A stretch of DNA of 64,000 bases from Macrostomum hystrix (taxonomy: Eukaryota > Animalia > Platyhelminthes), in the NCBI GenBank assembly GCA_950097015.1, contig CATNEN010000001.1, positions 496,001-560,000 on the forward strand, in the 5' to 3' direction. The position numbers and the translations under genes were made by a program. Positions within the stretch are counted from its first letter, which is position 1, and the number at the start of each line of letters is the position of its first letter. Positions 290 through 58,170 of this stretch are shown here, piece after piece. Under the pieces are notes generated by a model that saw nothing but the letters and a program-made list of their open reading frames with translations, had not been told where the DNA came from and ran no database searches.

Positions 290-19329
<19,040 letters not shown>

Positions 19330-29627: not shown

Positions 29628-30365
29628 GGAACCACCTGTCTACATTGTACTGGCCAACTCTGGCCAGTAACAAGCTGCTGAGCTTCTCGTGCAAAGTGGC
29701 GTTCCTCTCAACAGCCAGGACGAAGACGGCAAGACGGCCCTGATGCTGTCGGTCCAGCACGATCATTCGGCATTGCTAAACTGCTTCTGACGAATGGAGT
29801 TGATTTGAGGCTGAGAGATCGACGCACTTTGAATCATACGACTGCCAGCATGGCTGTGACGTTGTCACTCGCGTTCAAAACGTATTTAACGACTGTAATT
29901 CTGCCTACTTTGGGTGGCCCCGAAAAGGTCAGTTTTTTGTGAATTCAAATTCATGAATAACTCTTGTTCCATTGACATCGGGTGTGCTGCCGACGTTGCT
30001 GAAACTCAAGCAACCCGTGGTGAGTACGGAGGAGCCATTGGCACTTTCAGAAGTCGAACAACGGCACTAGCGGATACATCGAGTTGAAGAGCTCTACTCT
30101 CGCAAAGAAGCCGACTTTCTGCTGTGCTACGCTAATACCGATGGTCGCCAGGCTATTAGTATAGAGATACAGCAGAGAGCGGCTCAGCCAATGTGGCTGC
30201 CGTCTGTGAAGAAATCGAATGGCAACACAGCAGCGACCACATCGAAGACATCAAGACACGGGTAAATGCCAGATTAAAGAGTACTTGAGCATTGGTTGAA
30301 GACCAGCTCAGCAACTATTAAGTGTTTGAGAAGCCATCAACTCTGTCCAAAAGATGCTACTTAGA
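29628..30365 (+). pseudogene. Degenerate ankyrin-repeat plus caspase-like fragment
   Basis: Manual translation across frameshifts and stops gives ankyrin GTTCLH.../GQ*QAAELLVQSGVPLNSQDEDGKTALMLSVQHDH/IAKLLLTNGVDLRLRD and caspase-like FNDCN/PTLGGPEKV, ADFLLCYANTDG, VAAVCEEIEWQHSSDHIEDIKTRVN, EKPSTLSKRCYL. Confidence 0.7.
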
Positions 30366-31218
30366 CGCTCTTCTGTTAGAAGTCTTTCTGAGCCGAATGG
30401 ACGAAAATAACGGCTTACGAAATCAGATCTGAGAGACTGATCAGTGCTCCTTCATATCAAGCTCGTAATTTCCACCTTTGTGAAAAGCTTTTATTGTGAT
30501 TACAATATTAATTAAAAAAAATTTGTACGGGAAAGCAACACAGCAGAAAAACTATACGCCTATGGTACCTCAAGGATGCTAGAATAACAGAGTATCACTA
30601 GAATACTAGAATTCTAGTAATGGAAAGTTATAGTTATCTTTAAAATACAAATTTAACAGTAGTGAAAATGTAATTAAACAACTTTAAACTTAATTAGCGC
30701 ATTTAAAAAGATTCGCTATCAAAACTAAACAGTCTTAAACAGCAGAGAAAAAGAAAATGACCGCATCAAGTATTAAGAATTTTAAATAGCCAGATTAGGA
30801 AAATAACTTATTCATTCTGTTTAAGACTGTTAACGACAATATTTATAAAAATAAAAATTTGATTCAGCCGATAACACTAACTTCTAGAAGCCGTTTAATA
30901 GCAGAACTGCGCCATACTGTAAGCTTGTTATAAAAAAGTTAGTGTTTAAATTCTAAGAAAATGACCCCATGGAATTCATTTCACGAAATTCCTGTCAAAA
31001 AAATCATGAAGAAAAAAATTGTGTCCATACGCTCGTATTAATTAATTAGTTTGAAGCAGGCGATTAGCAAAAGCAAACTTAACAAAAGGAGCTTAACAAC
31101 AGCGAAATAAAATAGGATTTTAGTAATCATTTGTTTCGATCCTTATAATCGGGCGTAAAAATTAGTTTAAGTTTTCCAAATAAAAAAACAATAAATCTCA
31201 CTCAACAAATCTCGTTCA

Positions 31219-32970
31219 CTAAGTGTCTCCTTTGCTGGCAGCTACCTGAGTGCCTTCGGATCCGTGGGCCAAGCCGAGCTTCATGTCGTCGTGTTGGGCG
31301 GTGAGTCCGACTCCCTTTTCACCGACACTCACAGCGATTCTAGAGTAGCTGCTGGCAGCTACCTGAGTGCCTTCGGATCCGTGGGCCAAGCCGAGCTTCA
31401 TGTCGTTATGTTGGACGGTGAGTCCGACTACTTTTTTGCCGACACTCACAGCGATGCTAGAGTCTCCTCTGCTGGCAGCTACCTGAGTGGCTTCGGATCC
31501 GTGGGCCAAGCCGAGCTTCATGTCGTGTCGGGCGGTGAGTCCGACTCCCTTTTCGCCAACACTCACAGCGATGCTAGAGTCTCCTCTGTTGGCAGCTACC
31601 TGAGTGCCTTCGGATCCGTGGGCCAAGCCGAGCTTCATTTCGTCGTGCTGGGCGGTGAGTCCGACTCCCTTTTCGCCGACACTCACAGCGATTCTAGAGT
31701 AGCTGCTGGCAGCTACCTGAGTGCCTTCGGATCCGTGGGCCAAGCCGAGCTTCATGTCGTTATGTTGGACGGTGAGTCCGACTACTTTTTTGCCGACACT
31801 CACAGCGATGCTAGAGTCTCCTCTGCTGGCAGCTACCTGAGTGGCTTCGGATCCGTGGGCCAAGCCGAGCTTCATGTCGTGTCGGGCGGTGAGTCCGACT
31901 CCCTTTTCGCCAACACTCACAGCGATGCTAGAGTCTCCTCTGTTGGCAGCTACCTGAGTGCCTTCGGATCCGTGGGCCAAGCCGAGCTTCATTTCGTCGT
32001 GTTGGGCGGTGAGTCCGACTCCCTTTTCGCCGACACTCACAGCGATTCTAGAGTAGCTGCTGGCAGCTACCTGAGTGCCTTCGGATCCGTGGGCCAAGCC
32101 GAGCTTCATGTCGTCGTGTTGGGCGGTGAGTCCGACTCCCTTTTCGCCGACACTCACAGCGATGCTAGTGTCTCCTCTGCTGGCAGCGACCTGAGTCCCT
32201 TCGGATCCGTGGGCCAAGCCGAGCTTCATGTCGTCGTGTTGGGCGGTGAGTCCGACTCCCTTTTCGCCGACACTCACAGCGATGCCAGAGTCTCCTCTGC
32301 TGGCAGCGAACTGAGTGCCTTCGGATCCGTGGGCCAAGCCGAGCTTCATGTCGTCATGTTGGACGGTGAGTCCGTCTACTTTTTTGCCGACACTCACAGC
32401 GATGCTAGAGTCTCCTCTGCTGGCAGCTACCTGAGTGGCTTCGGATCCGTGGGCCAAGCCGAGCTTCATGTCGTGTCGGGCGGTGAGTCCGACTCCCTTT
32501 TCGCCAACACTCACAGCGATGCTAGAGTCTCCTCTGCTGGCAGCTACCTGAGTGCCTTCGGATCCGTGGGCCAAGCCGAGCTTCATGTCGTGTCGGGCGG
32601 TGAGTCCGACTCCCTTTTCGCCAACACTCACAGCGATGCTAGAGTCTCCTCTGTTGGCAGCTACCTGAGTGCCTTCGGATCCGTGGGCCAAGCCGAGCTT
32701 CATGTCGTGTCGGGCGGTGAGTCCGACTCCCTTTTCGCCAACACTCACAGCGATGCTAGAGTCTCCTCTGTTGGCAGCTACCTGAGTGGCTTCGGATCCG
32801 TGGGCCAAGCCGAGCTTCATGTCGTGTCGGGCGGTGAGTCCGACTCCCTTTTCGCCAACACTCACAGCGATGCTAGAGTCTCCTCTGCTGGCAGCTACCT
32901 GAGTGCCTTCGGATCCGTGGGCCAAGCCGAGCTCCATGTCGTTGTGTTGGGCGGTGAGTTCGACTCCCTT
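31219..32970 (-). repeat. Orphan module C: ~14-15 coding-type 117/120-bp repeats (39/40 aa) ending in a stop, followed by a 3' flank copy at 30564-31218
   Basis: Same repeat as the C-terminus of the SecA-like gene; frame open throughout and all indels are multiples of 3. Confidence 0.9.
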
Positions 32971-33417
32971 GGTACCTCAAGGATGCTAGAATAACAGAGT
33001 AATACAAGAATACTAGAGTTCTAGTAATGGAAAGTTATAGTTATTTTTTAAATACAAATTTAACACTAGCGAGAATGTAATTAAACAACTTTAAACTTAA
33101 TTAGCGCATTTATAAAGACTCGCTATCAAAACTAAACAGTCTTAAACAGCAGAGAAAAAGAAAATGACCGCATGGAATTCATTTCACGAAATTCTTGTCC
33201 AAAAAAATTATGCAGAAAAAAATTGTGTCCATATACGCTCGTATAATTAGATTGAAGCAGGCGATTAGCAAAAGCAAACTTAACAAAACAAGTCTAAGAA
33301 CAGCGACATAAAATAGGAGTTTAGTAATCTTTTCTTTCGACCCTTACAATCGGGCGTAAAAAGTAGCTTAAGTTTTCCGAATCCAAAAACTAATAAATCT
33401 CAATCAACAATTCTCAT

Positions 33418-34107
33418 TCACTCGCCCCTTCTGGCAGCTACCTGAGTGCCTTCGGATACGTGGGCCAAGCCAAGCTTCATGTCGTCGTGTTGGGCGGTAA
33501 GTCCGACTCCCTTTTCGCCGACACTCACAGCGATTCCAGAGTCTCCTCTGCTGGCAGCTACCTGAGTGCCTTCGGATCCGTGGGCCAAGCCGAGCTTCAT
33601 GTCGTCGTGTTGGGCGGTGAGTCCGACTCCCTTTTCGCCGACACTCACAGCGATGCTAGTGTCTCCTCTGCTGGCAGCGACCTGAGTCCCTTCGGATCCG
33701 TGGGCCAAGCCGAGCTTCATGTCGTCGTGTTGGGCGGTGAGTCCGACTCCCTTTTCGCCGACACTCACAGCGATGCCAGAGTCTCCTCTGCTGGCAGCGA
33801 ACTGAGTGCCTTCGGATCCGTGGGCCAAGCCGAGCTTCGTGTCGTCATGTTGGACGGTGAGTCCGTCTACTTTTTTGCCGACACTCACAGCGATGCTAGA
33901 GTCTCCTCTGCTGGCAGCTACCTGAGTGGCTTCGGATCCGTGGGCCAAGCCGAGCTTCATGTCGTGTCGGGCGGTGAGTCCGACTCCCTTTTCGCCAACA
34001 CTCACAGCGATGCTAGAGTCTCCTCTGCTGGCAGCTACCTGAGTGCCTTCGGATCCGTGGGCCAAGCCGAGCTTCATGTCGTGTCGGGCGGTGAGTCCGA
34101 CTCCCTT
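33418..34107 (-). repeat. Orphan module B: ~5.7 repeat units plus stop, followed by a 3' flank (32971-33417) that appears identical to 34108-34554
   Basis: Duplication offset of 1137 bp; junction GACTCCCTT|GGTACCTCAAGG at both 32970/32971 and 34107/34108. Confidence 0.9.
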
Positions 34108-34554
34108 GGTACCTCAAGGATGCTAGAATAACAGAGTAATACAAGAATACTAGAGTTCTAGTAATGGAAAGTTATAGTTATTTTTTAAATACAAATTTAA
34201 CACTAGCGAGAATGTAATTAAACAACTTTAAACTTAATTAGCGCATTTATAAAGACTCGCTATCAAAACTAAACAGTCTTAAACAGCAGAGAAAAAGAAA
34301 ATGACCGCATGGAATTCATTTCACGAAATTCTTGTCCAAAAAAATTATGCAGAAAAAAATTGTGTCCATATACGCTCGTATAATTAGATTGAAGCAGGCG
34401 ATTAGCAAAAGCAAACTTAACAAAACAAGTCTAAGAACAGCGACATAAAATAGGAGTTTAGTAATCTTTTCTTTCGACCCTTACAATCGGGCGTAAAAAG
34501 TAGCTTAAGTTTTCCGAATCCAAAAACTAATAAATCTCAATCAACAATTCTCAT

Positions 34555-37500
34555 TCACTCGCCCCTTCTGGCAGCTACCTGAGTGCCTTCGGATACGTGG
34601 GCCAAGCCAAGCTTCATGTCGTCGTGTTGGGCGGTAAGTCCGACTCCCTTTTCGCCGACACTCACAGCGATTCCAGAGTCTCCTCTGCTGGCAGCTAGCT
34701 GAGTGCCTTCGGATACGTGGGCCAAGCCAAGCTTCATGTCGTCGTGTTGGGCGGTGAGTCCGACTCCCTTTTCGCCGACACTCACAGCGATTCCAGAGTC
34801 TCCTTTGCTGGCAGCTAGCTGAGTGCCTTCGGATACGTGGGCCAAGCCAAGCTTCATGTCGTCGTGTTGGGCGGTGAGTCCGACTCCCTTTTCGCCGACA
34901 CTCACAGCGATGCCAGAGTCTCCTTTGCTGGCAGCTAGCTGAGTGCCTTCGGATCCGTGGGCCAAGCCAAGCTTCATGTCGTCGTGTTGGGCGGTGAGTC
35001 CGACTCCCTTTTCGCCGACACTCACAGCGATGCCAGAGTCTCCTTTGCTGGCAGCTACCTGAGTGCCTTCGGATCCGTGGCTGAAGCCGAGCCTTTTGTC
35101 CTTGCGTTGGGCGGTGAGTCCGAATCCCTTTTCGCCGACACTCACAGCGATGCCAGAGTCTCCTTTGCTGGCAGCTACCTGAGTGCCTTCGGATCCGTGG
35201 CTGAAGCCGAGCTTTTTGTCCTCGTGTTGGGCCATGAGTCCGACTCCCTTTTCGTCGACACTCACAGCGATGCTAGAGTCTCCTTTGCTGACAGCTACCT
35301 GAGTGCCTTCGGATCCGTGGGCCAAGCCGAGCTCCATGTCCTCGTGTTGAAGTGTGAATTCAATCCCATTTTCAGTAGCATTAAGTTGAATTGCTGCGTT
35401 TCGTTGTTGATTTCTTTGTTTTTGTTTTGTTTGTCTGTTCGTTTTAGTTTTTGGGCTGTGACACGGTTGGCTTTGTTTATATGCAGACTTAATTGTTTTT
35501 GAGACCGTAGTTTTTACTTTTTCTACGGCGTGTTGGGATAGGCTTTGTATATTTTTTTGTATTAAATCTTCTAAAATGGAAACGGCAATATCTGTTGTTT
35601 TTTTTTGAAGACAAAGTGCAACATTTTGTTTTAGATCATTGAGCTGTGCTTCATTTATTTGTTGTTCTTTTCGTGTACTTGCTTTATTGTCGCATGCTTT
35701 TTGTTTTTCGCAATTTTGAAGAACTCGGTCCATTTCTTTGACTGTGCTGCTAACTATATTTTTGATATTATTTGCGTGCAATCCAATTGCAGCCGCATCA
35801 GCTACCACGTCAGCGAATTTGATGATAGAAAGAACACCCTTGAATAGCTCTGCGCAATCATTTTTCAAAATTGCGAGTTTGGATTTCAAAACAGTCATTA
35901 TCATTTCTCCTGTATTCACATCTTTCATAACATTATCTGCTGCTTGCTGTATTATGAATGTGAAAGTTTGCAAGATCTTTTCCTGCATTTCTGGACGAAG
36001 TAACGAGAAGTCGCAGATGTTGGACTTGCCTGTACCCTCGTTTTGTGGTGTGCAGTATGGGGCCGTGACGCGCAAAATGATTGCCCTCAGATGACCTTCA
36101 CTTGCCTCTTCGGTGCACTTTTTGTCTATGTCGTTTTTGACGCTTTGCTTGATCTTCTTTATGAGCTGGTTAATAAGTGCTCTCTGTGCAGAATCTATTA
36201 TTATTCCACCAAAGAATTTTCCAACCGGGTTTTGTATGCATTTGAACAGAAAGTCGACAGTATTCTTTCCGATCAACTTGGTAAGAGCAGACGCTGCCCT
36301 CGTACATAGTTTATTCCCAACAGCACCAGACTTCTGAATAAGAGAGGATGATGACTTTAGATAGCCCAAGGCTTTTCCGAAACCGAAAGTCAATATGGAC
36401 TGCCCGATTTTCATTGCTTTATTTGTACACCAAGACTGCATATCAAACTCTCCGCTGATCAGTCCCATCACGCCTGCCATTATGTCGTTGAATCCTTCCG
36501 TAATAAAATAATTTCCGTGGTTGACGAAGCCAGCCACGCACAACATACCCCCGATGACGATTTCCACAACCCCTAAGACAGTGACTGCGGACGCATAAAA
36601 ATTCGAAGGTTTCTTTTGAACATCAAACAGCCTCACGTGACCTAGCAGGTAGAGGGACTTCAGCTCATCGAGTGTGATTTTGCCAGGGTTCTTTTCAATA
36701 TCTTTGATGCAAGTACTGATTGCAATGACTTTTTCGCCAGCTTCTCTATGCCTCTCAAGATTTTCTAAGCACTTCTTTATGCTCTCTTCAAGCTTACCGA
36801 CAGTATTAAGCCTGGCAAGGCACTGTTGAATTAATTCGTTGTTTTGATCTTGCTCTGAGCCCGAAGCTTTGTTAGGTTGTTCATCCTCTAATACGGCACG
36901 AGAATATAGGTGAGTCCAAATCGAATGGGCAAGCCACGTCTCACTTAATCTGGATTTCGCTTCTTCCAAGTCCGACATTACGTCTTTGATATCGATATCA
37001 CCTTTCATTAATTTGGCATACGCTCTGTTGTAGTAGGCGATTGCGGACCACGACTGATTCAACCCAATAGCTCTTGAGTACACATCAATAGCGCTTTGGA
37101 AGTTTTCAGCCCTCAAATTCTTGTCTGCGAATTTCAGCGCCTGGAATGGGCTCAAAGAACGATCAGATTCGACGTTTAGAACTGCTTCTTGAAACATTTT
37201 TTTACCTTCTCTTTGCACTGATCATCCCTTTCTCTGTTGAAGTCTTTAACGTGACAGATGGTGGTCTTTAGATGCATGCCCCACGTTTCCTTCAGGTAAT
37301 CGAGCTTAAGCCTGATTTCCTTGTCATCTTCCATTTGCTTGCGGATACGATACTCAGAAAGTAGACGACTGAAGCAATCAAAAAGACGCTCCTTAAACTC
37401 TACTTCTCGCAAGGCAAAATCCTTGTGATATCTTAGTTCTTTTAAGCTGGCTTCGCGCCTCATTTGCTTCATCTCCTCCACAGAATCGCAGTCGGCAAAG

Positions 37501-40500
37501 CAGGCACTCAGGCTTTCCTTGCTCAGTAGCAACGTTGCAGATCCTCGCTGACCCTTGCGGCCGCTCCGACCGAATACTTGCTCCTCAACTCGCTGATTTA
37601 AAGGTAAAAATGTCACAAGCACAAGAAGACCTCCGGCTTCTTCTGCTTCATCGCTCACCTTCACATCTGTGCCTCTGCCGGCAAGATTAGTAGCCACAAT
37701 CACATCGCCAGGACCGACTTCCAGTTCTCTCTCCGTATCCTTGTTCTCGGAGTACTTTATCGCCTTTACTGTGGGGCAACGATATTTTATTTCACTGAAA
37801 ATATGCTCCACACTGTTAATGTCCTCACAAACTATTAGGCTAGGCCGGCTTACACTCTCTTTCTTGACCAGGTTGCACAGCTTCGTGATGCATTCTTGTT
37901 TTGTATCAGTGATGATTCCGGGATTCTCAAGTAATCTGCGTTCTCTGTGTGGAGGAATATAGTTTAGCTGCACACAGTAGGTTTCACGCATGAATGCTTT
38001 TTCATGCTCTTCTCCAAGAGTTCCAGAAACACCAAACACTGAGCGTTTATATCGACGAAAGAATTCAAGGTTTGACAGGAAGTTGGTTTCAAGTCCCAGG
38101 GGTCGCATCTGTAGCTGATGCTTCAGCTGCAGAAACTGCTGCAGCCCGTCGCTCCACCGCATGCTCTCCTGGACTACCCCGGTGTGTCTGTAGTCTACGG
38201 GCACAGCGTCTCCGTCTTTAACAATATAGTCACGCCCGGGGACGAGTACGACTGCCGTCAGGGCACTGTTAATCCAAACATCCAGCATATCATCAATGAA
38301 CTGTTTCAGGTGTTTAGGCATTGGGAGCAGAGCTTCATTATTTTTGTCTTGTTTACCACCACTCGGAGAGTCCTTTAGGGTAGTGGAGTAATTTATTCTT
38401 GACTGGATATCCAAAACTTTATTCTTTTTGAAATCCTGAATATCTTGGTACAAAAATCTGCAAAAACCACTATCCATAATCAAAAGGTGCATTGAGCAGC
38501 CATTTGGAGCACACAGGAGTTCAATTTCCTGATTTCTAAGACAATACTTTGCGCACTTTGGAAACTGACACAAAAAGCTTTCTGCAAATGACAGAATTTC
38601 CAGGGCTCTACGAACATCAAAGTGATTAACTGGATTGCCATTTGGCTCACTGCTGTCAGATAAAAAGCACTGCTTCTCCTCTGAGCTTATGAGATTTTGT
38701 TGGGCCAGCTTTTCTACGAGGTCCTCTAACTCTTCGTCCGCTTCAACAAACTCCTTGATGAGATACAAAAAAGTCATCGGTTGCTCTGCAACCATCTCAT
38801 CTCTGTGGACGGTGTTTAGAACGTGACACCCATATATTGCTCTGAAGATAGTTGGGAATATTGGATCCAGCATCTTCATGTCACCTGCATCCTGAGCCAG
38901 ATAAGTGAGTTGCACTCCTTGATCCAATAGTAATGAGTCAACCTCATCCACTATGACAGAATCAAACTTCCTAGAGCCTCGAATGCCTTTGAACTGAAAA
39001 TCATGCCGTAATACATCTCCAGCAAAAGTTGAGACTGTCCCATAGACAATCTTGCACTCGTAGCATTGCTTTGGATTTTTGTGGCCAATATTACAATCGA
39101 CTGAAATACTACACTCTTCATAGAACTTTTTCCATTCAGCATAATCTCTTTGAGCCAGAACTTCTGATGGAGCCACAACATCGACAGACGTTCGTCCGAG
39201 AAGCATGAGGCCCACTGCAGTCATAGCAACAATGCAAGACTTCCCTTCACCTGTCAGAATCTGTAAGATTTGGCCGAAATTCTGAGTACCATAGGAACCC
39301 CTTAGCAGTGCCGCAGCACTGAAGACCTGGGTGTTTCGGGGAAGGTATCCATTGCTTTTCCTTACTGCTTTGCATAGGTTGATAAGAATTTTATGAATCG
39401 GCTGCTGTTTGTCTCGCTTCCACAGTTTGAATTTGCTTAGCTTATCTTTGCCCATTTCCAAAGTCTGTTTGATTCTACTCGTAGAACTCTCAAAGTATCC
39501 AGTAACTTCTCTGACGATGCCTTCTAGCTCTATAAGCTGTCCATCTTCAAATTGTCCAGTCTCTTTTATCTTTTTCAAAAGCTGGTCGATTGTCATCTGA
39601 GATGATTGATCTTTTTTCAACTTTTCGATTAGGCAATCCGAAATAGCGTCACTTGAATCTGATAGACTCTTTGGGTCACAGCGGTTAAGCACCATCAGCT
39701 TGACAAACTCTCGCACCTGATCCTGCGCAGCGTCCGAGCGTTTTATGATGCCCATCAGCTTGAATATGCTTTGGGAATCCCAATGATGCATCGAAGCGAT
39801 AAGCTCTACAACACACTCGGTATTTGATATCTTTTCTAGATGATCTGTCACGCCAACTCTCTTTAGCAGGGTTGTTTGAACAGCTCGAATGCGTTTCAAC
39901 TCGTTCGTTTCGAGTGGAACAGGCCACAGACGAGCGACCTCTTCAGATGCAACGAGCAGACGAAGCAGTACTATGGAAATAAGATTCGAATCGTCGTGAT
40001 CCTGTGGTGTAAGCAAGTAATTAAGGTGCTTAAGTGCGATCTTCGTTGCTTGAAACTGCTCATCTAGGGCACATATTTCAGTGTCGTACTTTGAGTCGTC
40101 TGCGGATGCATGATTCATAAGAAGGATTAGCAAGCTGTAGCTCATAAAGTCCAGATCAGCTCGCGGAAAGAGTTTCTCGAATATTTCGTCTGCGAGTTTT
40201 AAATTTTTTCCATTTAAGTTCGGTGACAGCAGGCTGAGCACTTCAGTTTGCAAATGCACTCGACTGTCTTCAAGCGATTCAGGTCTGAGAGTGCGTGCTT
40301 TCCAGCTGCGAAAAAGAAGGTCTAGGAAGTGCTTTGCCAAATAATCATTTTTCGTGCTTCTAGGAGTTTTGTGTTCTTCGCCTTCTTTGATGCTTGAATA
40401 AAACGTGTCCAAAATTTTTTCCACAAAGTCTTGAACGTTCTCATCAAATTGTTCTTTAAGTTCAACAGCGGACGCATCGCTGCCTGTTTGACTTCTGTAG

Positions 40501-41715: not shown

Positions 41716-41716
41716 T

Positions 41717-41730
41717 CTGGAAGAAAATTG
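41717..41730 (-). promoter_or_regulatory. Splice (or trans-splice) acceptor 1 nt upstream of the SecA-like ATG
   Basis: Minus strand reads CAATTTTCTTCCAG|A ATG GGC. Confidence 0.55.
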
Positions 41731-41831
41731 TGTTGTAATATAGGAACAGCAATCAAATATAAATTATTCATTCGTTCATCCTCATAATCATCAATCATCC
41801 ACCTATATGCAATGGTTTTATTCCTTGCCTT

Positions 41832-46719: not shown

Positions 46720-49700
46720 ATGGCAGAATCAAGGCGGAGTCACACATTTCTGTTCTGTTTCAGTGACAGCAAATGCTTTAAAAACCGTCGTCTAAGGAGC
46801 GAAACACAAAATACGACTTTGATCTTGGCAAATGAATTCAAGCTTAAAGTAGTCTCCGAGAACTGGAAAGAATATACCACAAGTCTTAATTTGTCGTCAA
46901 CCAGGTCAAACGAAAAGGAATGGAGCATGGAAATTAGCGAAACAGGTACTGGGGTGAGTAAAACGTAGATGTCACTTTTCTCTGAAATGGTACATATTTA
47001 TAGATCTTTTTTCGATACTTCACCCCACGAACAAGGCGCTGGGTTAGGGTTATGTTCATTGTAAGTATATATGTGCTAGGTTTGTTATTTAAAGGACAGG
47101 AAAACTGCGAAAGATAATAATATTCATGGATAATGTAAATAGATAATATTGATTTATTATAAATTCACATGTCCTACCAAATCCAATAACAGCAGCAGTA
47201 GGGGAAAAGTGAGGGAGCATAAAAAATCATTAAAATACGCCTCACCCTACTCGCGGTAGATTAGTATGGGCATTCGTCGGAAAAAGTTTCGGAATGTGCA
47301 TAAAAAGTTAGAACTAAAGTGTGAGCTAATAATAATAATAATAATAATAGTTTCGCCCCAAGCCGACCACAGAAGTGGCCAAGAGGGGGGAGCGTCAAAT
47401 CGCGCGTTTTAGAGCCAGGACTCTGACATGCTTCACGCCGGCCGCCTGGCTGGGTGCTCTGGCATCTTCAAAAAGACGGTCGACATAGCGGGCTGATCGT
47501 CCTTGGCCGCGCCTGCGCGGTCCCTGCGAGGTTCACAGCAGGACATCCTGCAGCGGCTCTGGGCAGTAGGCTTCGGCCCGGATGACATGCCCGGCCAGCC
47601 GCAGGCGCCGCTGACTCAGCAGGACAGAAGGCCGCGTTGGGCACGCGCGCTGGTAGAAGGACTCGGTTGTCTCGCTGCCAGGGCCGCGGCGGGCACCGAA
47701 AGCGGCGCGAACTAGGGCCGCATGCGCCGCATCGAGCTGCGCCTCGAGCGCCCCGGTCATCGTCCAGGTCTCAGCATTGTACAACAGGGCGGTCTCGACA
47801 ACCGCCTGGAACAGCTGAGACTTGGCGCCGTTCGACAGGTCCTCGGAGAGCAGCACCGCCCGCACAGAACGGAAGGCGGCCCAGGCCTTGCCGCGCCGTC
47901 TCACCAGGTCGTTGCCCAAATCAGGCACCAGTCCGCCGGAGTAGACGAACTGACGGCACTTCGGGAGCGCGGTCCCGGGGCCGTCACCGTCTCGTAGTCG
48001 AATCTCGGCAGGTAGGTTATGCGGCACCGTCAGCACCTCGGTCTTCATGGCGTTGATAACGAGGCCGACCCTCGCCGCCGCCGCAGTCAGGCCATCCAGC
48101 AGCCTTTGGGCGCCTTCAGCCGTCGTAGCTACAGCAGGGCGAGGTCGTCCGCGTAGCCGAGGGCAGACAGCTTCTTCTCCGGGTGCCGTCGACTAGTGCG
48201 CCTTTGAAGCAGAAAACCGTCCTCTGCAGTCGGCAAGCCGGTCCTGAGCACCCATTCCATCACCAGCACGAAGAGAAAGGGCGCCAGAGTGTCACCATGC
48301 AGCACTCCGGAGGTAGTGCTGAACAGGTCCGACGGTCCGTCTGGCGTCGCTACCACAGCGGTGGTGTCCTGATACAGCGTCATGATGGCGAAGTTCAGCT
48401 GCTGCGGTATGTTGTAGGCACGGAGCACGTGAGGCAGCGCGCCGCGGGCCACCGAGTCGAAAGCCATGAGGAAGTCAACAAAGATGACGACAAGGCTTGA
48501 CTGGTGGATGCGCGCCTCCCCGATGATGCGGCGGAGGGCCAGGATCTGAGTCACCGTGCCGCGACGGGGCCGGAACCCGTTCTGCTAAAAGGTTCATAGG
48601 ATAATTGCTTGTCTCATAGATTGAAAGCCTGAAGTAAAGTTAGAATAATGGCCACTAATGTGACAATTGACGATTAGTAAAGTACGAGACGAAAGAATCT
48701 ACCTATTGATGATGCATTTCAGAGGCTCGCAAGCTGTACTTTTGGTATCAAGTTTCTGTACGATACCTTGTTCACTTTGTTCTTTCTTCACCGGACCTTT
48801 TCACATTGTGATTCTTGATTTTATTTTCAGAGCGAAGACAGCTGGAACAGCATCGTTAATTTCAACAAAAATACTCACGAAATTCGCGTCACAATCTTGG
48901 ATATGAAACTTAGAAAGCCGATTGAAGTGAAGGCCGATCAAGTTACAGTGTCTAAGTGCAAGAAAATAAGCTACAGTCATCAAGAATTTACTAGCTTATC
49001 GATCTTCTCAGAAAAGGAAGTTCATCTTTCATGCAAAAAGTTGAAGGGATCAATTTTAAGTCTACATGCTCCTGCAGTATACATTAGCAGAGATTCAGTG
49101 ATTCAATGCACGGAAATAAACTGCAAGCCAAACAGATTAGGTGACGCTGAAAGCAGACTCGAAATCTCAGGTAGCATCTTGCCATTCGATGGCTGTTCAG
49201 AGCCTTCTAAGAATATTTCAGCTAAAGTGACCGGATCAATGTTAATCACTATGACAGGAACTATTGGCTGCCATCCGAACCAAAATACCACAGCTGATGA
49301 AGTTATTTTAGCGGTCGCAGGTGGCATAACAAATGTCGGCTTGATCTATGCTAAAAGCGAGATAGGCATTACGGCCAGAAGTATGCAGTCGCCACAGGCA
49401 GTGCAAGACGCTGCTGCTCGAGTTGCACAACGCCAACGCGACTCGACACAGAATCGAGCAGCCGAAACTGACTCTGTCGATGGTAAAGTATTGGATCAAC
49501 GGCTTATAAGCAGGTGTAAAAGCATTTCAGGCGAGCTGAATAGTCTTATTCGCTGCGGAGCGGATCCCCACTACACTGATAGAAATCGCCGTAGATCGAG
49601 TTCAAAGCTATATGAGTGTATTGCCGATCTGAGTCTCGCGAGTCCGCATGGAGTTGCTGAACGAAATCGATTAGATAAGAACAGAATTCTTCTAGACTGG

Positions 49701-52700
49701 GAAGCAAACAGCAAGGGTTGCTACAAGTCCAACAAAATCAGATGCAAAGTCAGCCAGGATGTTGACAATCTCGGCCAGATTTGCGCCTCGATAGTAGAGC
49801 TCGACATTGGAGGAAATGCTTATGTTGAGGCTCGGTCAGTATGGAAGAGTGGAAACGTCAGCGGTTGGTGCCGCGGTAATTTTGAGCTGATGGGGCCTGG
49901 ACGAATTATTTTAGAAGAACTGGGAGGCTTGGAGTTGGGACATTGCAAAATTCATCCAGGAGCGGAGTTGTGGTCACTGAACGGTGGCTCAGTGAGAGTG
50001 GCTGGTACTCTAGAAAATAATGGTCGGATACGCAACAGCTTCCGGCTAATGTCGATCGATACTGGCGACTTCATACAGAGCCCCAGAGCCGAAACTCGCT
50101 CAGTGACGGAGAACAAGGCCGAGGTCCAGATCACAACACGCAAATTGAATCAGTCATTTTTCGGTAGCCTCAGTGGTTACAGGGTCACCGTTGTTGCCCA
50201 CTCTCAGCTCATACTGCAGGCAACTGTTGAAGCGGATGAGTCATTTGTCGGCATGATCTGTGGCTCCGCTGGTCACATTTCTCTGCAGGAAAACGTCTTA
50301 GTAAAAAACGGGCCCATCGTTGTCCAGACCGATGGTTGCGTTGACACAGCTGAGGTTTATGTGAACTGTCGCATCGACTCTCAAGGAGTCGTTTTTCAGT
50401 CTTCGACAGCCAAATTCAGCTCAAATAGCCGCTTGGTTTGCCCTCCAGAGTCAAGTGAAGAAAGGTCGGATTCTATTGAAATCGTGCTGCACAATGCGGT
50501 AACGCAAAACAGATCTGTCTGGGACCTAACTGCTGACGAGGTGAGCATTTTCGTCGGAGATCAATTCACTCACCAAGGAGTTCTGAAGCTCTCGCAGGGC
50601 GGCGAAGAGGCACCGCAGACGTCACTTCTCATAAGAGGACGTAATTTCGTAAACAATGGATCCATTCAAGGAGTGAAGACCCTGTGCATGGACTTGGATG
50701 GGGACTGTGAGCTCAAGACAGGCCTGAAATCAGAATATTCACTCGTATTGATCGCAAGACAGACTATTCAAATTTTGACTTCGACTGTAGTTGCTTCGAT
50801 AAATGCAAGTGTGCATATCAGAGCTGACTACCTTATTAACCAAGGCCGCATTCGCTCCAGCGACAATCTGCTGATTGTGGCACGCGACATTGACAATTCG
50901 GCGGGTAGCGTTGTGTCTGACTGTGGCGCAGTGTTCATGGCCTGGCTAGGATCTCAAGAGGACTCTTTTCTTGAAGGGCACGTTAAAGCTCAATCGCAGC
51001 TTAGTATGTGCAGCATTAAATTCAGAGAATTTGCTCATCCAAGCTCATTCACAGGAGCAGCCTTTGCACCTGAAACTACCAACACTTGGAGCAAGTTTCC
51101 AATGCGTTTCAGGCTCCGTTACGCTTTTCAGTGAAGTTAGCTCAACAAATCAAACTTACATTCACTTCCGGGCTGCGGAGACTATCGAGTTGCAGCGAAA
51201 TGTCAGCTGCAATAAGCTCATTATTCAGCCGAAGCAAAGTTCAAAGCGACTGAAAGTGACGCTTTCCGAATCAGGCGTCATTGAAGTTGACTACCTACTT
51301 GTGAGTTACATGAAGGCCAGAGCATCTTCGGAGACCGCAACACTTTCAATTGAGGCTGAGAAAAAGGCCATTCTGAAGTGCTCAACTTTTATGGGAGCAG
51401 AGATTGATGTGGAGCTTCACATCGATGTTGAGATGAAACTGCCAAGTCAGATCGTTGCCAAGAAGCTATTAGTAGCAGAGAACCTCACAATTACAAGCCC
51501 CGAAGATAAACCTGGTGATTTCCGCCTGCTCTGCGACGACCAACTTGAGATTGGCAAAGCGATACTGCTCGATGCAGCACAATGCCACATGGCGACAAAA
51601 GATTTTATCATAGCTGAAGAAGGTGAGCTCCATTTTACCAGAGTAGCCCAAGCGACAATTCAGTCCAAGAAGATTTCCATTAATGGCCTTCTGTTAGCTC
51701 GCATGGCAGACTCAGAAGACCTTGCAATAGTAGCTCAGACTGACCATTTTGAAGCCAGTGGTGTCATTCAGTTAGGAAGCGCGAGCACTAGCAATGCTGG
51801 CAACTTGGTCGTGTGTTGCAAGAGTGCTAATGTTGGCGGTCAAATTGGTACAATTAAAGATACAAAGCCGGCTGCTCTGCTGCTAGACTTCGTGGGTCGC
51901 GCAGACATACACTCGGAATGCGTCCTGAAATTAGGGAGATTGCTAATGATTGGCGGTCACGAGTTGGTGCTCAGATCTGCAAATATCTCGGTATCGGATC
52001 TGCTGGTTATCGAATCGGTAAATAGGCTGAACTTGGAATCTAGCAAGATTGAGCTGGATCAGGCAAATGTATCAGTTAGAAAAGTACGACACTTGAAACT
52101 GAACGGAACTTGCATAGAATGCAGTCACGGTGTGATACTTGACGAATCGCCAGAAAGCAGCTATGAGGTTAGCACTGCCAGGCTGACAGTCTGCGCTCAG
52201 AATGTTATCACCATGTCTGCTTTTGAAGTGCGCAACATTGAGCACGCCGAATTTCATGCCATCGAGACAGCAACCTATCAATCTCACAGCAGATTTATAA
52301 GCTGCAAGAAGCTCTATCTAAAAAGCGAGTTTCTTGATTTCCAAGCTTCCGTGCGCGATACCGGGGACATATTGTGCGAAGCAGAAGCCGCACTAATCTC
52401 CGGTCTGATGCATTGCAGCTCAGAGCTGTCCGTGTCAGCCTCTCAGCTGATTTTTAATCAAGGGGATCTGAGTGCAGGACTAGTCAGACTAAACGCAACA
52501 GTTCAGATGCACCTGTGCCGGAAGATTGATGATAAGTTCGATTCGGCGAAAATTTCCGCTGAGAAGTCTCTGAATATTAACTGCTACGCCCTAATTACAA
52601 TCTTCGCGAAAATGGTTAGCCCCAGGCTAGTTACCAAGAGCATCTTACACTTCGGCTTTGCTGAACAAGTGCAGGCAAAATATGGCATCGAACATAGGGG

Positions 52701-55700
52701 AGAAGAGAGTGTAGCCCAGGATCTGGTTGAGAAACGAGTGATCGAATCTCAATCAGGTGAAAGGATGCACGAATGTTTAAAATATTTGGTGTCCGATGCG
52801 GCAAATAGATGTAGAAGTGAGCACAAAATTTGCTGGCAGCTGGTCTCCATGGCAACGAAATACCTACGGTCAAACTTAAACGAAACGGACGTCGATGAGA
52901 ACACGGTAGAAAAAGCAGCTTACTTACTTGTAAACTTAACTTCTGCGCTCCAAAATGGATTCGCAGAGGAGGATATTGACTTATCAGAGTACTGGAATAG
53001 TCTGACCCACCTGCATGAACACTCGAGTTCTCAAGGATTGTTCGAATGCAGCCACTGGGTGTGCCTCGCCGGACCCAGTCGCTGTGAGGCGAAAACACTA
53101 ATTTACGAGTGCACGGATTGGTGGTGCGAGGGCGCCATTGCCGTTGATGATGGAACCCTCATCAAGGCCGTCCGTGCCCAGCTGTGGTCTGACAACCAGA
53201 TACCAGCATGGCTTCTTTGTACTGGCGATGTACACATCTTCGCCGAAGAGGTGCTGCGCATTAGAAGCCTGACATCCAGCGAGGGTGCTGTCACACTCCG
53301 GAGTGCAACAATCGATGCCTATGGCATCTGGGCAGCAAAGAATCTCTTAGTGACTGCGGGAAAGGAAGTCAAAATTGATGAGCTGCTTGGAGAATCTGAG
53401 GTCTGGATTAAAGCGAAGGACGCCGTAGTGCGAAATGCGGCTGCAGATAAAATGTACATCCAATCCGCCTCAAGCGATATTTTTAACAGCGCATGTACTT
53501 CTACGCTTTGCGTGATAGGCTCGGAAACGATTCATGCGAAATTTGTCTCGGCTCCACAGGCAAATTTTATAGCATCAGGTGATTACGCTCAAGTGGACTT
53601 AGAATCATCAAAGATCGAAGGCTGTGCAGTTTTATCGAAGAATTGCATGATTTCGAAGTGCTCGTTCACATCTTTAAACTGCACCATCGACCACGACCTG
53701 AAAATAAACGCATCGCATGTATTTAAAAACTTAAAAGCAAAGGTCGGGAACGATTTGAGCATCTGTGACTTCTGCAATTTGAACATTCTCGATTGTCGAG
53801 TTGCCAAAAGGTGCGTAGCGCACCAAGTAGAAGCCCAGGGTTTGAATTGCGCTTGCCAGTATCTTCAAGTAACCGATGCCTTAGTAAACAATATGAATAT
53901 CATCAGCGCTGATAAAATTAAAATCACCGACTCAAGCATTGCCGACCTTAAGGCCCGCGCCACTGAGGCAATCGAAATTTTAGGCGATTTAACGAACTCC
54001 AGTCTCGGACGAGCGGTTTGTGAAAGCGAGAGCTCGTTGACGGTAGTAAAGTCATATGCGACCGAATGTTTGGTGCTGTCTGGAACAGATCTAAAGCTGG
54101 CCGACTCGATGCTGTCAGATCTCCTGTTCTCATGCGATCAGCCGAGCAAAGTCTCCGTTACTCAATCAATGACTCACAATGCTACAATCTTCTGCACCGA
54201 AATGCAAACTAAGGAGAGCAAGTTTGGCAATCTGACTTTTCAGGGTCAAGTTTTGAATGTGGTTCGAACTGAATCGAAGGAAATGCAAACTGATGCTGCC
54301 ATCAGCATTGGCCTTACGAAGTCGTGCGTCTTCGGCAATCTGGCTGTCTGGTGTGAGGTTGCTCACATCTTGAGCAGCTTTTTAGGCTCATTAAAACTTC
54401 ACCGCTGCTCAACGGGCGCAACAGTTAGAGCGAGCGAAGTTCAGGAGGGCATTGAGATCTTTTCGAGACATCTTAAAATGTGTGACTCAAGCGGCAAGTG
54501 CCTACTGATACGGACGAAAGGGAATACAGTCTTAGACAGGCTTATGGTTGACAACGCATGCGATGTAGCTAGTGTCGGGCCATTCACACTGAGAGACTGC
54601 CAATTCGATGAACTCAACGTTTTGGCTGAAGCATCTGCTGCAGTTAAAAAACTAATAACAAACAAAGCCACGTCCGTACTCTCTACAGGTGACACAAAAC
54701 TACGCGAAGTGTTGGTAGGTAGTCTTGATGCGCAATCCGAAAATGGTCGTCTTCGTGTCTCGAATTTAAACTCCATTGGTCGCTGTCAGCTGAGGTCGCG
54801 CAATGTAAGTGTGGATGGTTGTCAGTGCCAGTCAGATCTGGCATTAGTCACAATGTTTTCAGTGCAAATCTCAGACTGCTTTGCTCAGAATGTTGACATT
54901 CAAGGCCTTCAAAACGAGCGAACAAGAGTGAGACTGTTGGAAATTAAAGCCCAGAAACTCAGCGTTGAGAACTCGCTTTTCGTGGCGATAAGTAAAACTG
55001 AAATTATGGAGGATTCTACCTTGAAGAGAATCTCAGGTGACGTAAGAATTAAATGTAACTGCAGTCTTCACAAACTGATGGTTGAGAATGGTGGAATTCT
55101 AGCCGTAAGTGATTCTGAGATTGGTGAGGTCGTGGCTCATAGCAACCGTTGCTGCATCTCTAGCACTTCTGGCCTGCAGACCAGTCTCCGCGTTCGTGCA
55201 ACTGAAACAAAAAGTGCTGGACCGACAGTGTTGTTGGATCTTGTGTCAAGAATTGATGTGGCTGTGATTCATGGACGCCAGATTTGCTTGACGGAATGTG
55301 CCTTTAATCAGGGCAACGTGAAGGCTGATGAGCTGTGCAGAATCGAGGGATGCAATGTCAGGAAGCATTTAGATATTGAGGGCCCCATCGCACTAGTGTT
55401 TGACACAGACGCTGAAGTGATCCGCGTGAAGAAAAGCAGCAGGTGTGAGCTTAAAAATGTGCGATATGCTGAGATCCTCGCAAAGTCAGGGCAACTTTAC
55501 CTTGAAGACTGCCACGTTCAGAAGATTCAAGCAGAAGATATTGAAAGAGTGCGTGTAAACTCCTGTGAGTTTATCGATAGCGTCCTTCTAAAAGCTAAAG
55601 AAGTCAGTATAAAAGGTGTCCTCGTTCAGAACCGCATTCAAGTGCAGGCTAGTGTCTTTGTTCTTGATGGTAAAAATCGAAAAGAGGATAACGAAGGATA

Positions 55701-58170
55701 TGCAAAAGAACTACTTGTGCTATGCACAGACTCTGCAGCTGAGGCAGCGAATGTGAGTATAAAAAATATTCGCACGAGCATGCTTGAAGTGAATGGTAAA
55801 CCGGAGTCAGTTGTGCTAGAGCACGTGACTGTTGAAGAAAGTACTTCGTTATCCGGTCAGGAAATGAAGCTGGCAAATATTGATAGCAAGCAACTATACA
55901 TTATGAACAGACCTACAAACTGCTTCATCGAGGCTGCATTTCTGAAATGTCTTATAGGCGAAGCGCGAAGTCTCACAGTGTCTCGCTCTATCCTAACGCT
56001 TGTTGGCGTTATTGTTGAAAATTTGACCTTAGTCGATGAAACAGATGTAGAACAGGAATTTAGGGCCCACGTCAGGAATCTTAAAATTGCAAGCAGCAAG
56101 GCCGGCTCAGTTTCCATCCTCGCTGATGATCCAAGAGCTACAGCAACAATCCAATGCCTTCTAACAGAGTCAACTTGCGAAATTTATGGCTTCCACGAAA
56201 TTGATCTCCAGGATTGTTGTACTTTTAAAGGAAAGGTGATGATAAAGTGTCAGTCATTCAAGGCGAAACAACTGTGTCAATTTAACGATGACGCGTTAGT
56301 CGATTGTTCAAACTGTGACTGGAAGTATCCAGAGATTGCAGCGTCTTTGAAGTTGCGCTGCAGTAGCGGATGCGTTGAAAATGCTCGAGTAGCTGACAGC
56401 TGCGAATTGCTCGCGACTGGTTTGCTGAAACTCACCGACTGTCAATTTGAAGGACCCATTAAGTCTTTTGGAAAGAAAGGCTCGCTGAACTTTGTAAATC
56501 CAAGATTTTTTTGCTTTGAACTTGAGGCTGACAGCATCGAAATGACAGGCGCGGACACGAAGGAAACCTCCTGGCTTTGCACTACCAGCAATGCGACTAT
56601 CAGCCAATGCTTCAGTAGCCAAGATGTTTCGATTGAGTCAAGATGCGTTCGGATCAATGGTAGTGCCTCATTTAGCAAGTCACTTCACATAAGGTGCTCT
56701 GATGCGTTGGAGATTGAAAGCACTATGGTTAATTCAAGTCTGACAGTCGTTGCTGAGGGCAGTGTAGCGGTTAATTCCGGAGTCACAGCTGCATCCTTTC
56801 TGATCGAATCGAGAAACATGCCTTCGTTTTGTGCGCCAAGCGACTGCAAGTTTGGCGTGTTGCAAATCGTGTGTCCTGGGTTGAGCATGCAATCTATTAT
56901 CGACTTCCTGAGAAACAAAGCAACCGGGTGCGTTAGAGAACTCCTTAAGTTAAAGACAAAGAGCTCTTTAAAAATTTCCGGCGCAGATCTAGGAGGAAAC
57001 GAATTCGGTATGGGATTCGGACTTACTCTTTCTGCGGCTACAATTGAGCTGAGAAATATAAGCATTTTATCACTAAAGCCTATTTGTCTGATTGCGGAGA
57101 AAATAGAAATGGAGGAATATACTGTTACAGCTCCTGAAATTACTTTGAAGGCCAACCAGGGGCCGATATTGTGCAACGGAAAGTACACAGAACACCTCGG
57201 GCTAAAAGGTGAGCAGAGAATGAATAATACAAAGAATCCATTTGATCAAATTTCTAACACCACGAAAGCTCACCCTGCATTAGGAAGTTGTTTCTTAGAA
57301 ACGAACAAGACAAAAGCAGAAGCTCTTAATGCACAGCTGCAGAAGCAGAAGTCCATTAGAAAGCTGGACGCAGTTCCACTGTGCTGTGACACTGAACAAA
57401 ATGCTACATACAACAATGCAAACCTGGATGCCCCGGACTTCGAAGAACTCTTGAGAACTGACAAAACCGAGTGTACTTTTGAGGTAGGGCAGCAATCTCT
57501 GTCGAGATTAACTGACTTTAGTCAAAGCGCTGCCGCCGCTTGCGAGTTAGCCGATAAACAGTCTGAGTCGCAGCTGAGAAACTTTGATTCTGACTGTCAG
57601 TCAGTCAGAGCGAACATACAGACCGATCTAGCTTCGATACCAACTGAGCTCGACTGTGAATTCCCAGTACTTCATGGTGAGGTCGAACAGCTGAAACTGG
57701 AGAATATGGCTAAAGTAAAAATTGAAGAGTTCGACGAGGAATTCAAAACGGATGCCGATGCAAATCGTTCGGATAGAAATTTAAATTGGAGACACGTTGA
57801 AAATGTCTGCTCAGAGTGCACGGAGCCGGAGGACTACTTTCGACAAGCAAGGGAGGCAATGCTAAAGTCTGTCAGCAAGTGCTCTAGCATTCTGGCCATG
57901 AGCATACAGAACAGCCTGCCAGGTCACTTACCCAGGGAACCGGAGAGTTACATCGGACGCGTGCGGCTCCTACCGAGAGCCTCAAAGTTACTGGTGGCGT
58001 TTAGCTCCAGAGGTGTTGCCGCAGTCGACGGTAATATTGCGCTGGCCGCTTTCTCCAGCGTCGGGTCGCAATGGGGATCTGCCTTTCTGCAGCCGGTTGC
58101 TCGCGACTCGGAAGCCAAAGCCAAGGCGTTCGACACAGCTGACCCGGACTACTACACCAACCATTGCTAG
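46720..58170 (+). CDS. Giant Cys-rich beta-helix protein with FHA/CdiA-like repeats, ~3,190 aa; exon 1 46720-46953, exon 2 48831-58170 with one +1 frameshift near 51000-51025
   Basis: Donor GGG|GTGAGT (46954) and acceptor TTTATTTTCAG| (48830) are both phase 0 and the frame is open into the 745-aa ORF. Repeats GTLENNGRI, NFVNNGSIQG, ADYLINQGRIRSSDNLLIVARDIDNSAGSV and LIFNQGDLSAG resemble FHA repeats; a long region of alternating hydrophobic strands follows. Confidence 0.7.
47328..48585 (-). mobile_element. 5'-truncated RTE-like non-LTR retrotransposon with (TAT)n tail, in the intron of the beta-helix gene
   Basis: QNGFRPRRGTVTQI, FVDFLMAFDSV, GVLHGDTLAPFLF, YADDLALL, LLYNAETWT, RLRLAGHV. Frame broken at ~48130; (AAT)n at 47328-47349. 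Confidence 0.92.

What the first reader, a model, noticed from the sequence alone, without database searches (positions are those of the whole stretch)
29628..58170. Candidate undescribed animal system: SecA-like ATPase head-to-head with an FHA-like giant beta-helix gene, orphan C-terminal cassettes and an ankyrin-caspase relic
Seen: two very large, nearly intronless genes with bacterial-type domains diverge from a 5-kb spacer (ATGs at 41715 and 46720) between ordinary intron-rich housekeeping genes (MTFP1, SELENOF). Downstream of the SecA-like gene are duplicated variable C-termini and a death-protease relic. Known: SecA is a polypeptide-translocating ATPase; FHA/CdiA beta-helices are long stalks of adhesins and toxins; bacterial CDI/Rhs loci carry orphan C-terminal modules; head-to-head sensor/executor pairs occur among immune genes. 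Inference: a co-regulated module for defence, allorecognition or toxin delivery, possibly of horizontal origin.
Basis: partly seen in the sequence, partly recalled or inferred. Interest (0 to 1): 0.85.

Follow-up and report, generated by a model that had tools for sequence, protein, structure and literature searches.

The report
Animal SecA-like ATPase beside orphan beta-solenoid
Two large, transcribed but frameshifted animal genes face away from each other across what is likely a short shared promoter: one belongs to a widespread, unstudied animal family of SecA-like ATPases that likely act at membranes in defence, the other is an orphan predicted to form a long beta-helical rod, and nothing found here shows that they work together.

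Summary
Both genes are real and divergent. Spliced contigs place a minus-strand 5' exon about 435 bp from the beta gene's first exon; the '5-kb spacer' is mostly inferred 5'-UTR intron holding a Ty3/gypsy relic.

The SecA-like gene belongs to a pan-animal clade (mussel, horseshoe crab, hemichordate, fishes, frog), so it is not a recent transfer. It keeps all ATPase motifs and has a clade-typical MG start, a TPR and a hydrophobic hairpin, but no SecA scaffold/wing domain was found.

The second gene is a likely beta-solenoid with no relatives found and no signal peptide; FHA identity is unsupported. Both carry frameshifts that short-read contigs confirm, so this haplotype likely makes neither full protein.

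The 'orphan cassettes' are tandem copies of one 40-residue repeat plus 3' flank, not variable effector modules. The relic has clear ankyrin but only a weak caspase-p10 trace.

No relative of the beta gene lies near SecA-like genes in 160 loci. However, 3 bacterial loci link the family to other hemagglutinin-like regions, and some bacterial members end in toxin domains, which keeps a real two-gene module possible (about 12%).

The parts
26817..28952 (-). MTFP1, flanking housekeeping gene (exon pieces seen)
   Evidence: exon translations; name from recalled motifs
29626..30429 (+). Broken ankyrin relic with a weak caspase p10-like tail; several stops and frame changes; tail-to-tail with the SecA-like gene
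   Evidence: Ank_4 E 2.4e-6, Peptidase_C14 E 0.085; no PDB match
30564..32976 (-). Third copy of the SecA-like gene's 3' end: about 15 units of the 117/120-bp repeat plus flank; starts mid-repeat
   Evidence: (flank 92% identical)
32971..34113 (-). Second copy of the 3' end: about 6 repeat units plus flank
   Evidence: (flank identical at 450 of 450 aligned bases)
34555..37221 (-). SecA-like gene, C-terminal frame (888 aa): TPR, conserved Gly-rich hydrophobic hairpin, helical region, 40-residue beta-type repeats
   Evidence: TPR hints; up to 77 of 152 homologs align here in one 250-bp bin; hairpin; repeats
37176..40598 (-). SecA-like gene, ATPase frame (1140 aa) with intact Walker A/B and NBD2 motifs
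   Evidence: Pfam, PDB SecA E 6e-36, motif columns
40549..41715 (-). SecA-like gene, N-terminal frame (388 aa): MGNTGS start (predicted myristoylation) and coiled coil; the ATG lies one base after a splice acceptor
41980..44100 (+). Degenerate Ty3/gypsy-type retroelement relic inside the inferred 5'-UTR intron; bounds approximate
   Evidence: RVT_1 and Integrase_H2C2; high-copy relatives
45650..45772 (-). Second 5' exon of the minus-strand transcript; upper edge observed, lower edge (donor) inferred
   Evidence: joint 45772/46102 in 3 of 4 runs; splice signals
46102..46200 (-). First observed 5' exon of the minus-strand transcript
   Evidence: longest side 99 letters; GTAAGC donor
46201..46635 (.). 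Candidate bidirectional promoter (gap between the most 5' transcribed bases seen)
   Evidence: inference, since contigs do not show start sites or strand
46636..46953 (+). Beta gene exon 1 (ATG 46720; 234 coding bases; phase-0 GTGAGT donor); no signal peptide
   Evidence: X3 contig 46636-46953 ends at the donor; phase and hydropathy
47340..48586 (-). Non-LTR (LINE-type) RT relic in the beta gene's intron; bounds approximate
   Evidence: RVT_1; high-copy relatives
48831..51134 (+). Beta gene exon 2, first frame: predicted parallel beta-helix with five N-x-G-x-I/L motifs
50950..58170 (+). Beta gene, second frame (2406 aa): beta-strand-rich with a likely helical insert near residues 590-690; no relatives found
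60245..61550 (-). SELENOF, flanking housekeeping gene (two exons seen); its splice shows which runs hold spliced RNA

Best explanation
The locus is a pair of divergent, transcribed genes, frameshifted in this haplotype, that likely share a short promoter but are likely not a dedicated two-part machine: one is a member of an old animal clade of SecA-like ATPases predicted to be a myristoylated, membrane-acting defence motor, the other an orphan predicted to form a cytosolic beta-solenoid rod. Shown: ATPase motifs, clade membership, frameshifts, spliced 5' exons, tandem 3' duplications. Inferred: an intact allele would anchor through its N-terminal glycine, bind a target through the TPR, and use SecA-type ATP cycles to pull on a polypeptide or to insert its Gly-rich hydrophobic hairpin into an internal membrane such as a pathogen vacuole, without a SecY channel. 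Inferred: the patch (two frameshifted genes, an ankyrin relic, two retroelement relics, an unstable repeat tail) is ordinary birth-and-death turnover of fast-evolving defence-type genes.
For: Family size and range: 1460 representatives at E<=1e-30 (a share may be canonical SecA); 11 of 30 looked-up hits carry animal names, with tandem copies in a frog and a silverside. Tree: the window protein sits in a 74-tip clade (support 0.999) with 9 named animals and 1 of 72 bacterial-genome rows. MG start in 22 of 72 clade members against 2 of 65 outside. Hairpin consensus shared. ApoL fused in 1 and OTU in 2 of 40 homologs scanned. Breaks: contigs of X1 and X2 span 35444-41840 with 0 gaps, X2 spans 48754-55300 with 0 gaps; homolog spacing across 37200 differs by a median of -0.3 residues (66 of 68 pairs), so no intron there. 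No relative of the beta gene in 160 SecA-like loci or fused in 152 homologs.
Against: The 5' ends lie only about 435 bp apart and run X3 holds contigs of both genes, which fits co-regulation. 3 of 160 loci, all from bacterial genome bins, link SecA-like genes to hemagglutinin-like regions. The synteny set is mostly bacteria and unnamed metagenome contigs, not related animals, and a fast-evolving solenoid could be missed by sequence search. No paper found tests an immune role; myristoylation and membrane action are predictions. The beta gene shows a hint of purifying selection (7 synonymous of 16 SNPs, pN/pS 0.38, p 0.049, low-depth contigs), and one X3 contig differs in length within 36670-38431, so the genes may be intact in other individuals.
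Confidence: 0.55

Rival explanations
1. A real co-regulated two-gene defence or allorecognition module: the beta-solenoid is a variable binding rod and the SecA-like ATPase the executor, echoing endosymbiont loci where hemagglutinin-like regions and SecA-like ATPases are fused or adjacent; this strain carries a null haplotype.
For: Divergent 5' ends about 435 bp apart. Both genes covered in X3; X5 covers the beta gene and holds 66% of the SecA stretch's words. L103 fuses a beta-rich, TPS-like N-terminus (judged by eye) to ankyrin and SecA-like domains, L106 has its homolog upstream, L082 has a hemagglutinin-repeat gene abutting the SecA-like gene.
Against: No sequence or profile similarity between the window's beta gene and those bacterial regions. 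The ATPase is in an animal clade apart from L082, L103 and L106. No second linked pair was found.
Confidence: 0.2
2. Both are long-dead pseudogenes transcribed as noise from a leaky promoter and neighbouring retroelements, with no current function in the species.
For: Three to four frameshifts over the two genes, present in RNA-type contigs for the SecA-like gene; retroelement relics; an antisense splice from beta exon 2 into the LINE relic in 2 of 4 runs.
Against: Frames of 1140, 888, 771 and 2406 codons stay open; ATPase motifs intact; pN/pS 0.38 in the beta gene. Any loss must be recent.
Confidence: 0.15
3. The genes are functional as they stand, with the breaks bypassed by ribosomal or transcriptional slippage or by tiny introns.
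For: The 37176-37221 overlap holds an A-run that resembles a recalled slippery site; GT-AG pairs of suitable phase exist at all three breaks.
Against: Homologs are continuous and leave no room for an intron at 37200; RNA-type contigs are unspliced across the SecA breaks; three or four independent recoding events would be needed.
Confidence: 0.05
4. A secreted CDI/Rhs-like toxin-delivery system with exchangeable orphan C-termini, recently taken from bacteria.
For: Bacterial family members end in lysozyme (L082) or LHH nuclease (L058) domains, some shared with neighbouring ORFs.
Against: The window's duplicates repeat one 40-residue unit with no enzyme domain; no signal peptide or TpsB partner; metazoan clade.
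Confidence: 0.05

Closest known systems
Animal 'protein translocase subunit SecA-like' proteins (e.g. XP_070531556.1 Ptychodera, CAC5418044.1 Mytilus, XP_076334637.1 Tachypleus, XP_069047858.1 Lepisosteus)
   Same: SecA_DEAD core at 30-41% identity, TPR and hydrophobic hairpin after it, MG start, tandem copies
   Different: This copy is frameshifted and ends in a 40-residue tandem repeat (0 of 65 clade proteins had a comparable repeat tail)
SecA-like domains of intracellular bacteria: phage WO eukaryotic association module (PMC5062602) and Amoebophilus effectors (PMC3482391)
   Same: Same divergent family; 79 loci fetched, mostly Rickettsiales, Legionellales, Chlamydiae, Mycoavidus and Wolbachia
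   Different: Separate clade; toxin-like tips or giant ankyrin neighbours in bacteria, none here
Canonical SecA/SecA2 translocase ATPase
   Same: NBD1, part of the preprotein cross-linking domain, NBD2 motifs
   Different: No SecA_SW hit; 166 bits against a cut-off of 862; long branch from 12 canonical rows; animals lack SecYEG (established knowledge)
FHA/CdiA two-partner-secretion exoproteins and other parallel beta-helices
   Same: Beta-strand periodicity, N-x-G-x-I motifs; model residues 1-180 align to beta-helices (Z up to 10.7, rmsd 2.7, 125 aligned; hemolysin A Z 9.4; FHA Z 8.0)
   Different: No signal peptide, no TPS or hemagglutinin profile hit, no TpsB, no toxin tip; Cys-rich; spliced; the fold match is generic and from a low-confidence model
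Secondary SecA_DEAD proteins of PVC bacteria next to T1SS-related genes (PMC4452313)
   Same: Extra SecA_DEAD proteins outside the core translocon, one with TPR and NACHT
   Different: Bacterial; relation to this family not tested

Membership tests
SecA translocase | SF2 NBD1/NBD2 with SecA-type Walker A/B and motifs | tested here: met
SecA translocase | Full-length score at the family cut-off, with helical scaffold/wing (SecA_SW) | tested here: not met
   best 166 bits against 862; no SecA_SW hit in either frame; homologs carry TPR plus hairpin there
SecA translocase | Works with SecYEG to move preproteins | not testable with these tools
   no host genome held; absence of SecYEG in animal cells is established knowledge
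Animal SecA-like (SecA_DEAD + TPR + hairpin) clade | Nests with named animal members | tested here: met
   74-tip clade, support 0.999
Animal SecA-like (SecA_DEAD + TPR + hairpin) clade | MG start, TPR and Gly-rich hairpin | tested here: met
Animal SecA-like (SecA_DEAD + TPR + hairpin) clade | One uninterrupted reading frame | tested here: not met
   breaks confirmed in short-read contigs
FHA/CdiA (TpsA) | Signal peptide and TPS secretion domain | tested here: not met
   no hydrophobic stretch in exon 1; no Pfam or NCBIfam TPS hit
FHA/CdiA (TpsA) | Long parallel beta-helix | tested here: inconclusive
   models at mean pLDDT 37 and 33; residues 1-180 match beta-helices generically; periodicity score above the 99th percentile of 553 ORFs, not corrected for length; Atlas 0.88
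FHA/CdiA (TpsA) | Adjacent TpsB transporter; C-terminal toxin and immunity gene (CDI) | tested here: not met
   none among the window's long ORFs
CDI/Rhs orphan modules | Downstream cassettes with distinct effector domains behind a shared junction | tested here: not met
   same repeat and flank in all three copies
Caspase (Peptidase_C14) | p20 with catalytic His/Cys plus p10 | tested here: inconclusive
   only a p10-like piece at E 0.085; no QxCR motif in 29600-30450
Head-to-head sensor/executor pair | Divergent starts within about 1 kb (recalled definition) | tested here: inconclusive
   about 435 bp between contig ends; the link of the 5' exons to the SecA ORF is inferred
Head-to-head sensor/executor pair | Conserved linkage, co-expression and interaction | not testable with these tools
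   no related animal genomes held; 0 of 160 loci had a relative of the beta gene

The most novel reading that the evidence does not exclude
Animals run a cell-autonomous defence module descended from the polymorphic-toxin toolkit of intracellular bacteria: a myristoylated SecA-type motor paired, from one bidirectional promoter, with a giant cytosolic beta-helix rod that recognises invaders or non-self, with null haplotypes segregating in populations.
Probability: 0.12. Interest if true: 0.85.

Novelty: new member of a known kind. Interest (0 to 1): 0.45.

Why it matters
The proposed system is not shown, but the locus points at two open problems. First, a large animal family of SecA-like ATPases (molluscs to frogs, often in tandem arrays) shares a predicted myristoylation start and membrane hairpin, and has toxin-tipped relatives in intracellular bacteria, yet my searches found no functional study of it. 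Second, the roughly 3200-residue beta-rich orphan has no detectable relative. If the two proved linked across species, it would be a new class of paired animal defence genes.

Tried and rejected
Relatives of the beta gene: none in the 5.8-billion protein set (longer proteins only, first frame, near lengths, second frame; both weak negatives). None in metagenome, genome or viral contigs (close relatives only), phages or plasmids. PDB by sequence gave only E 0.37 or worse. The Atlas gave nothing at 0.9 or above.

Structure: single-sequence models were poor; Foldseek gave no match at E<=0.001. The second model was not searched. BLOSUM autocorrelation gave no clear repeat period.

Long-read assembly error as the cause of the breaks: rejected (X1 and X2 may be the source of the DNA, so this is a check of method, not of another individual). 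An intron at 37200: rejected.

No run is on record as RNA; I infer RNA for X1, X3 and X5 from the SELENOF splice, with no DNA control laid. X1 and X4 cover the SecA-like gene but little of the beta gene; lack of cover in contigs is not counted as evidence. The splices 45650 to 41716 and 46953 to 48831 were not observed. An N-terminal profile of 22 clade members did not match the 388-aa frame. No LTR pair was found around the gypsy relic. No Pfam hit at 58600-58901. No complex prediction was run, as binding is not claimed. Earlier-findings look-ups by sequence and place were empty.
Full report
Setting. No whole genome is held for this window. The region lies between intron-containing MTFP1 and SELENOF; both names come from recalled motifs. 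The host is inferred to be an invertebrate animal; its lineage was not established.

SecA-like gene. It lies in three main frames on the minus strand: 41715-40549, 40598-37176 and 37221-34555. The middle frame hits SecA_DEAD (E 6.5e-28), P-loop_SecA, DEAD, Helicase_C and SecA_PP_bind and solved SecA at E 6e-36, but scores 166 bits against a cut-off of 862 for true SecA. No SecA_SW hit appears. Walker A, Walker B and NBD2 motifs match the family consensus. The last frame has a TPR hint, one strong hydrophobic segment matching a Gly-rich clade consensus, and 40-residue tandem repeats. Up to 77 of 152 homologs align to this frame in one 250-bp bin, so it belongs to the same protein.

Family. HMMER found 7695 representatives at E<=1e-3 and 1460 at E<=1e-30 (canonical SecA not separated out). 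Of 30 hits looked up, 11 carry animal names: sturgeon (flagged as possible contamination), mussel, saury, silverside, mormyrid, hemichordate, gar, horseshoe crab, anchovy, rotifer, frog. One has a name without organism and 18 have none. The family also occurs in intracellular bacteria (79 loci), as noted in passages I read on phage WO (PMC5062602; PMC9203015) and Amoebophilus effectors (PMC3482391). In a FastTree tree of 223 rows (151 of 182 proteins and 72 of 79 genome loci kept for spanning both ATPase lobes) the window protein falls in a 74-tip clade, support 0.999, with 9 named animals and one bacterial-bin row, L093. This argues for old animal inheritance rather than a recent transfer; the deeper origin is open. 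MG starts are enriched in that clade (22 of 72 against 2 of 65), and the window's MGNTGS fits, which supports the ATG at 41715 and predicts N-myristoylation. Of 40 homologs scanned, 2 carry OTU, 1 ApoL and none a hemagglutinin, caspase or death domain at E<=0.001.

Beta gene. Exon 1 (ATG 46720, donor after 46953) joins in phase to an acceptor at 48831, across an intron holding a LINE relic. Then come frames 48831-51134 and 50950-58170. There is no signal peptide or membrane segment, no family hit and no relative in any search. Support for a beta-solenoid is real but indirect: alternating hydrophobicity scores 3.2 and 3.95 against a 99th percentile of 2.69 in 553 ORFs (not corrected for length); the first 180 residues of a low-confidence model (mean pLDDT 37) align to many parallel beta-helices at Z 8-10.7; the Atlas lists a hemagglutinin cluster at 0.88, a lead only. 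'FHA-like' therefore describes a likely fold, not membership.

Breaks. Short-read contigs of X1 and X2 match 35444-41840 with no difference, X4 matches 35444-39566, and X2 matches 48754-55300 with one other letter and no gap. The frameshifts are thus in the DNA. Homolog spacing across 37200 differs by a median of -0.3 residues (66 of 68 pairs; 2 outliers dropped), excluding an intron. Codon scores suggest two shifts near 40500-40600. Against complete death: one X3 contig is 2 letters shorter somewhere in 36670-38431 (not located), and the 16 differences of X5 in the beta gene are 7 synonymous and 9 non-synonymous with no stop (pN/pS 0.38, one-sided p 0.049; contig depth 3.6-7.4).

Transcription and promoter. 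No run is recorded as RNA, but 3 of 4 runs laid (X1, X3, X5) skip the SELENOF intron exactly, at canonical sites, so I treat them as RNA. The same 3 runs show a minus-strand splice 46102 to 45772, and X3 holds a contig 46636-46953 ending at the beta gene's donor. The most 5' bases seen are about 435 bp apart. That these exons belong to the SecA-like gene is inferred from a strong acceptor one base before its ATG, a donor at 45650 and near-continuous X1 contigs from 45772 to 35444. If so, the '5-kb spacer' is mostly 5'-UTR intron containing a Ty3/gypsy relic. X3 has depth in all 14 bins of 48827-58080 and contigs over the SecA-like gene. Contigs give no strand, start or level, so co-regulation is untested.

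Cassettes and relic. Three copies of [repeat array + 3' flank] start at the same anchor (30564, 32971, 34108); the flanks are 100% and 92% identical, and the arrays encode the same 40-residue unit. This is recent tandem duplication, probably by unequal crossover in the repeat; assembly of the arrays was not checked against reads. The relic at 29626-30429 has ankyrin (E 2.4e-6) and a weak caspase p10-like piece (E 0.085), with several breaks.

Linkage test. In 160 loci around SecA-like genes, tblastn found no relative of either beta frame, the repeat tail or the caspase piece at E<=0.1, while the C-terminal frame matched 40. I scanned 44 of 166 neighbouring ORFs of 500 aa or more (chosen as divergent, beta-rich or large): 1 had a hemagglutinin repeat hit (L082, E 2e-4, just under the cut-off). 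A periodicity screen added L103, where a beta-rich N-terminus with a TPS-like motif (recalled, judged by eye; no profile hit) is fused to ankyrin and SecA-like domains, and L106, with its homolog upstream. None resembles the window's beta gene. Some bacterial members end in lysozyme or LHH nuclease domains. The test is weak for animals, because related genomes are not held.

Literature. Searches returned no functional study of animal SecA-like proteins or of an animal hemagglutinin-like partner; the library lacks most subscription papers. Seen as passages only: PMC5037449 (a SecA DEAD-like transcript in a Daphnia differential-expression table), PMC8195603 (SecA-like domains in actinobacterial toxins), PMC4452313 (secondary SecA_DEAD proteins; listing and passages), PMC7397232 (canonical Sec only). 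No supplements were read.

Verdict. Real genes, a likely shared promoter, an ordinary explanation for the cassettes, and no shown partnership. Best reading: neighbouring fast-turnover genes, recently broken in this haplotype (0.55). A functional pair of any origin stays possible (0.2), and the endosymbiont-derived version of it at about 0.12. Interest 0.45, carried mainly by the unstudied animal SecA-like family and the orphan giant.

Noticed in passing
L121, L126, L130, L135, L136, L138-L141, L143-L145, L147-L150, L152, L155-L158: 21 of 160 loci (Legionella, Chlamydiae, Mycoavidus, Coxiella and others) carry a related giant ankyrin-repeat gene (about 2300-2800 aa where complete) beside the SecA-like gene, same strand, upstream in 20: a conserved two-gene module of intracellular bacteria.
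   Followed up: partly
L082:2698-15589; L058:37-14868; L055: Bacterial or metagenomic SecA-like giants end in lysozyme or LHH nuclease domains, or share a C-terminal region with neighbouring ORFs, a polymorphic-toxin-like layout.
   Followed up: partly
L103:5978-13573; L106:407-2467: Beta-rich N-terminal region with a TPS-like motif fused to, or upstream of, a SecA-like ATPase in a Rickettsia bin and a Holosporaceae genome; 38% identical to each other, no profile hit.
   Followed up: partly
window 48584-49577: Antisense-oriented splice (48703 to 48584) joins part of beta exon 2 to the LINE relic in runs X1 and X4.
   Followed up: no
window 382-25404: Dense satellite arrays (periods 14-34 bp) fill the left part of the window; the long ORFs at 10175-12463 are repeat artefacts.
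   Followed up: no
window 63057-63998: 3' end of a ubiquitin-specific protease gene (UCH, E 2e-31), covered by contigs in all 4 runs laid.
   Followed up: no
window 58081-59500 and 60430-61000: Short elements with contig cover and many loose ends, likely dispersed repeats; one sits in the SELENOF intron.
   Followed up: partly
window 49480-49690: A helical insert in the first beta frame contains an ankyrin-like turn (judged by eye; no Pfam hit).
   Followed up: no
P0003 with L105: A nematode-named SecA-like protein groups with a Wolbachia locus (support 0.93): possible transfer or contamination.
   Followed up: no
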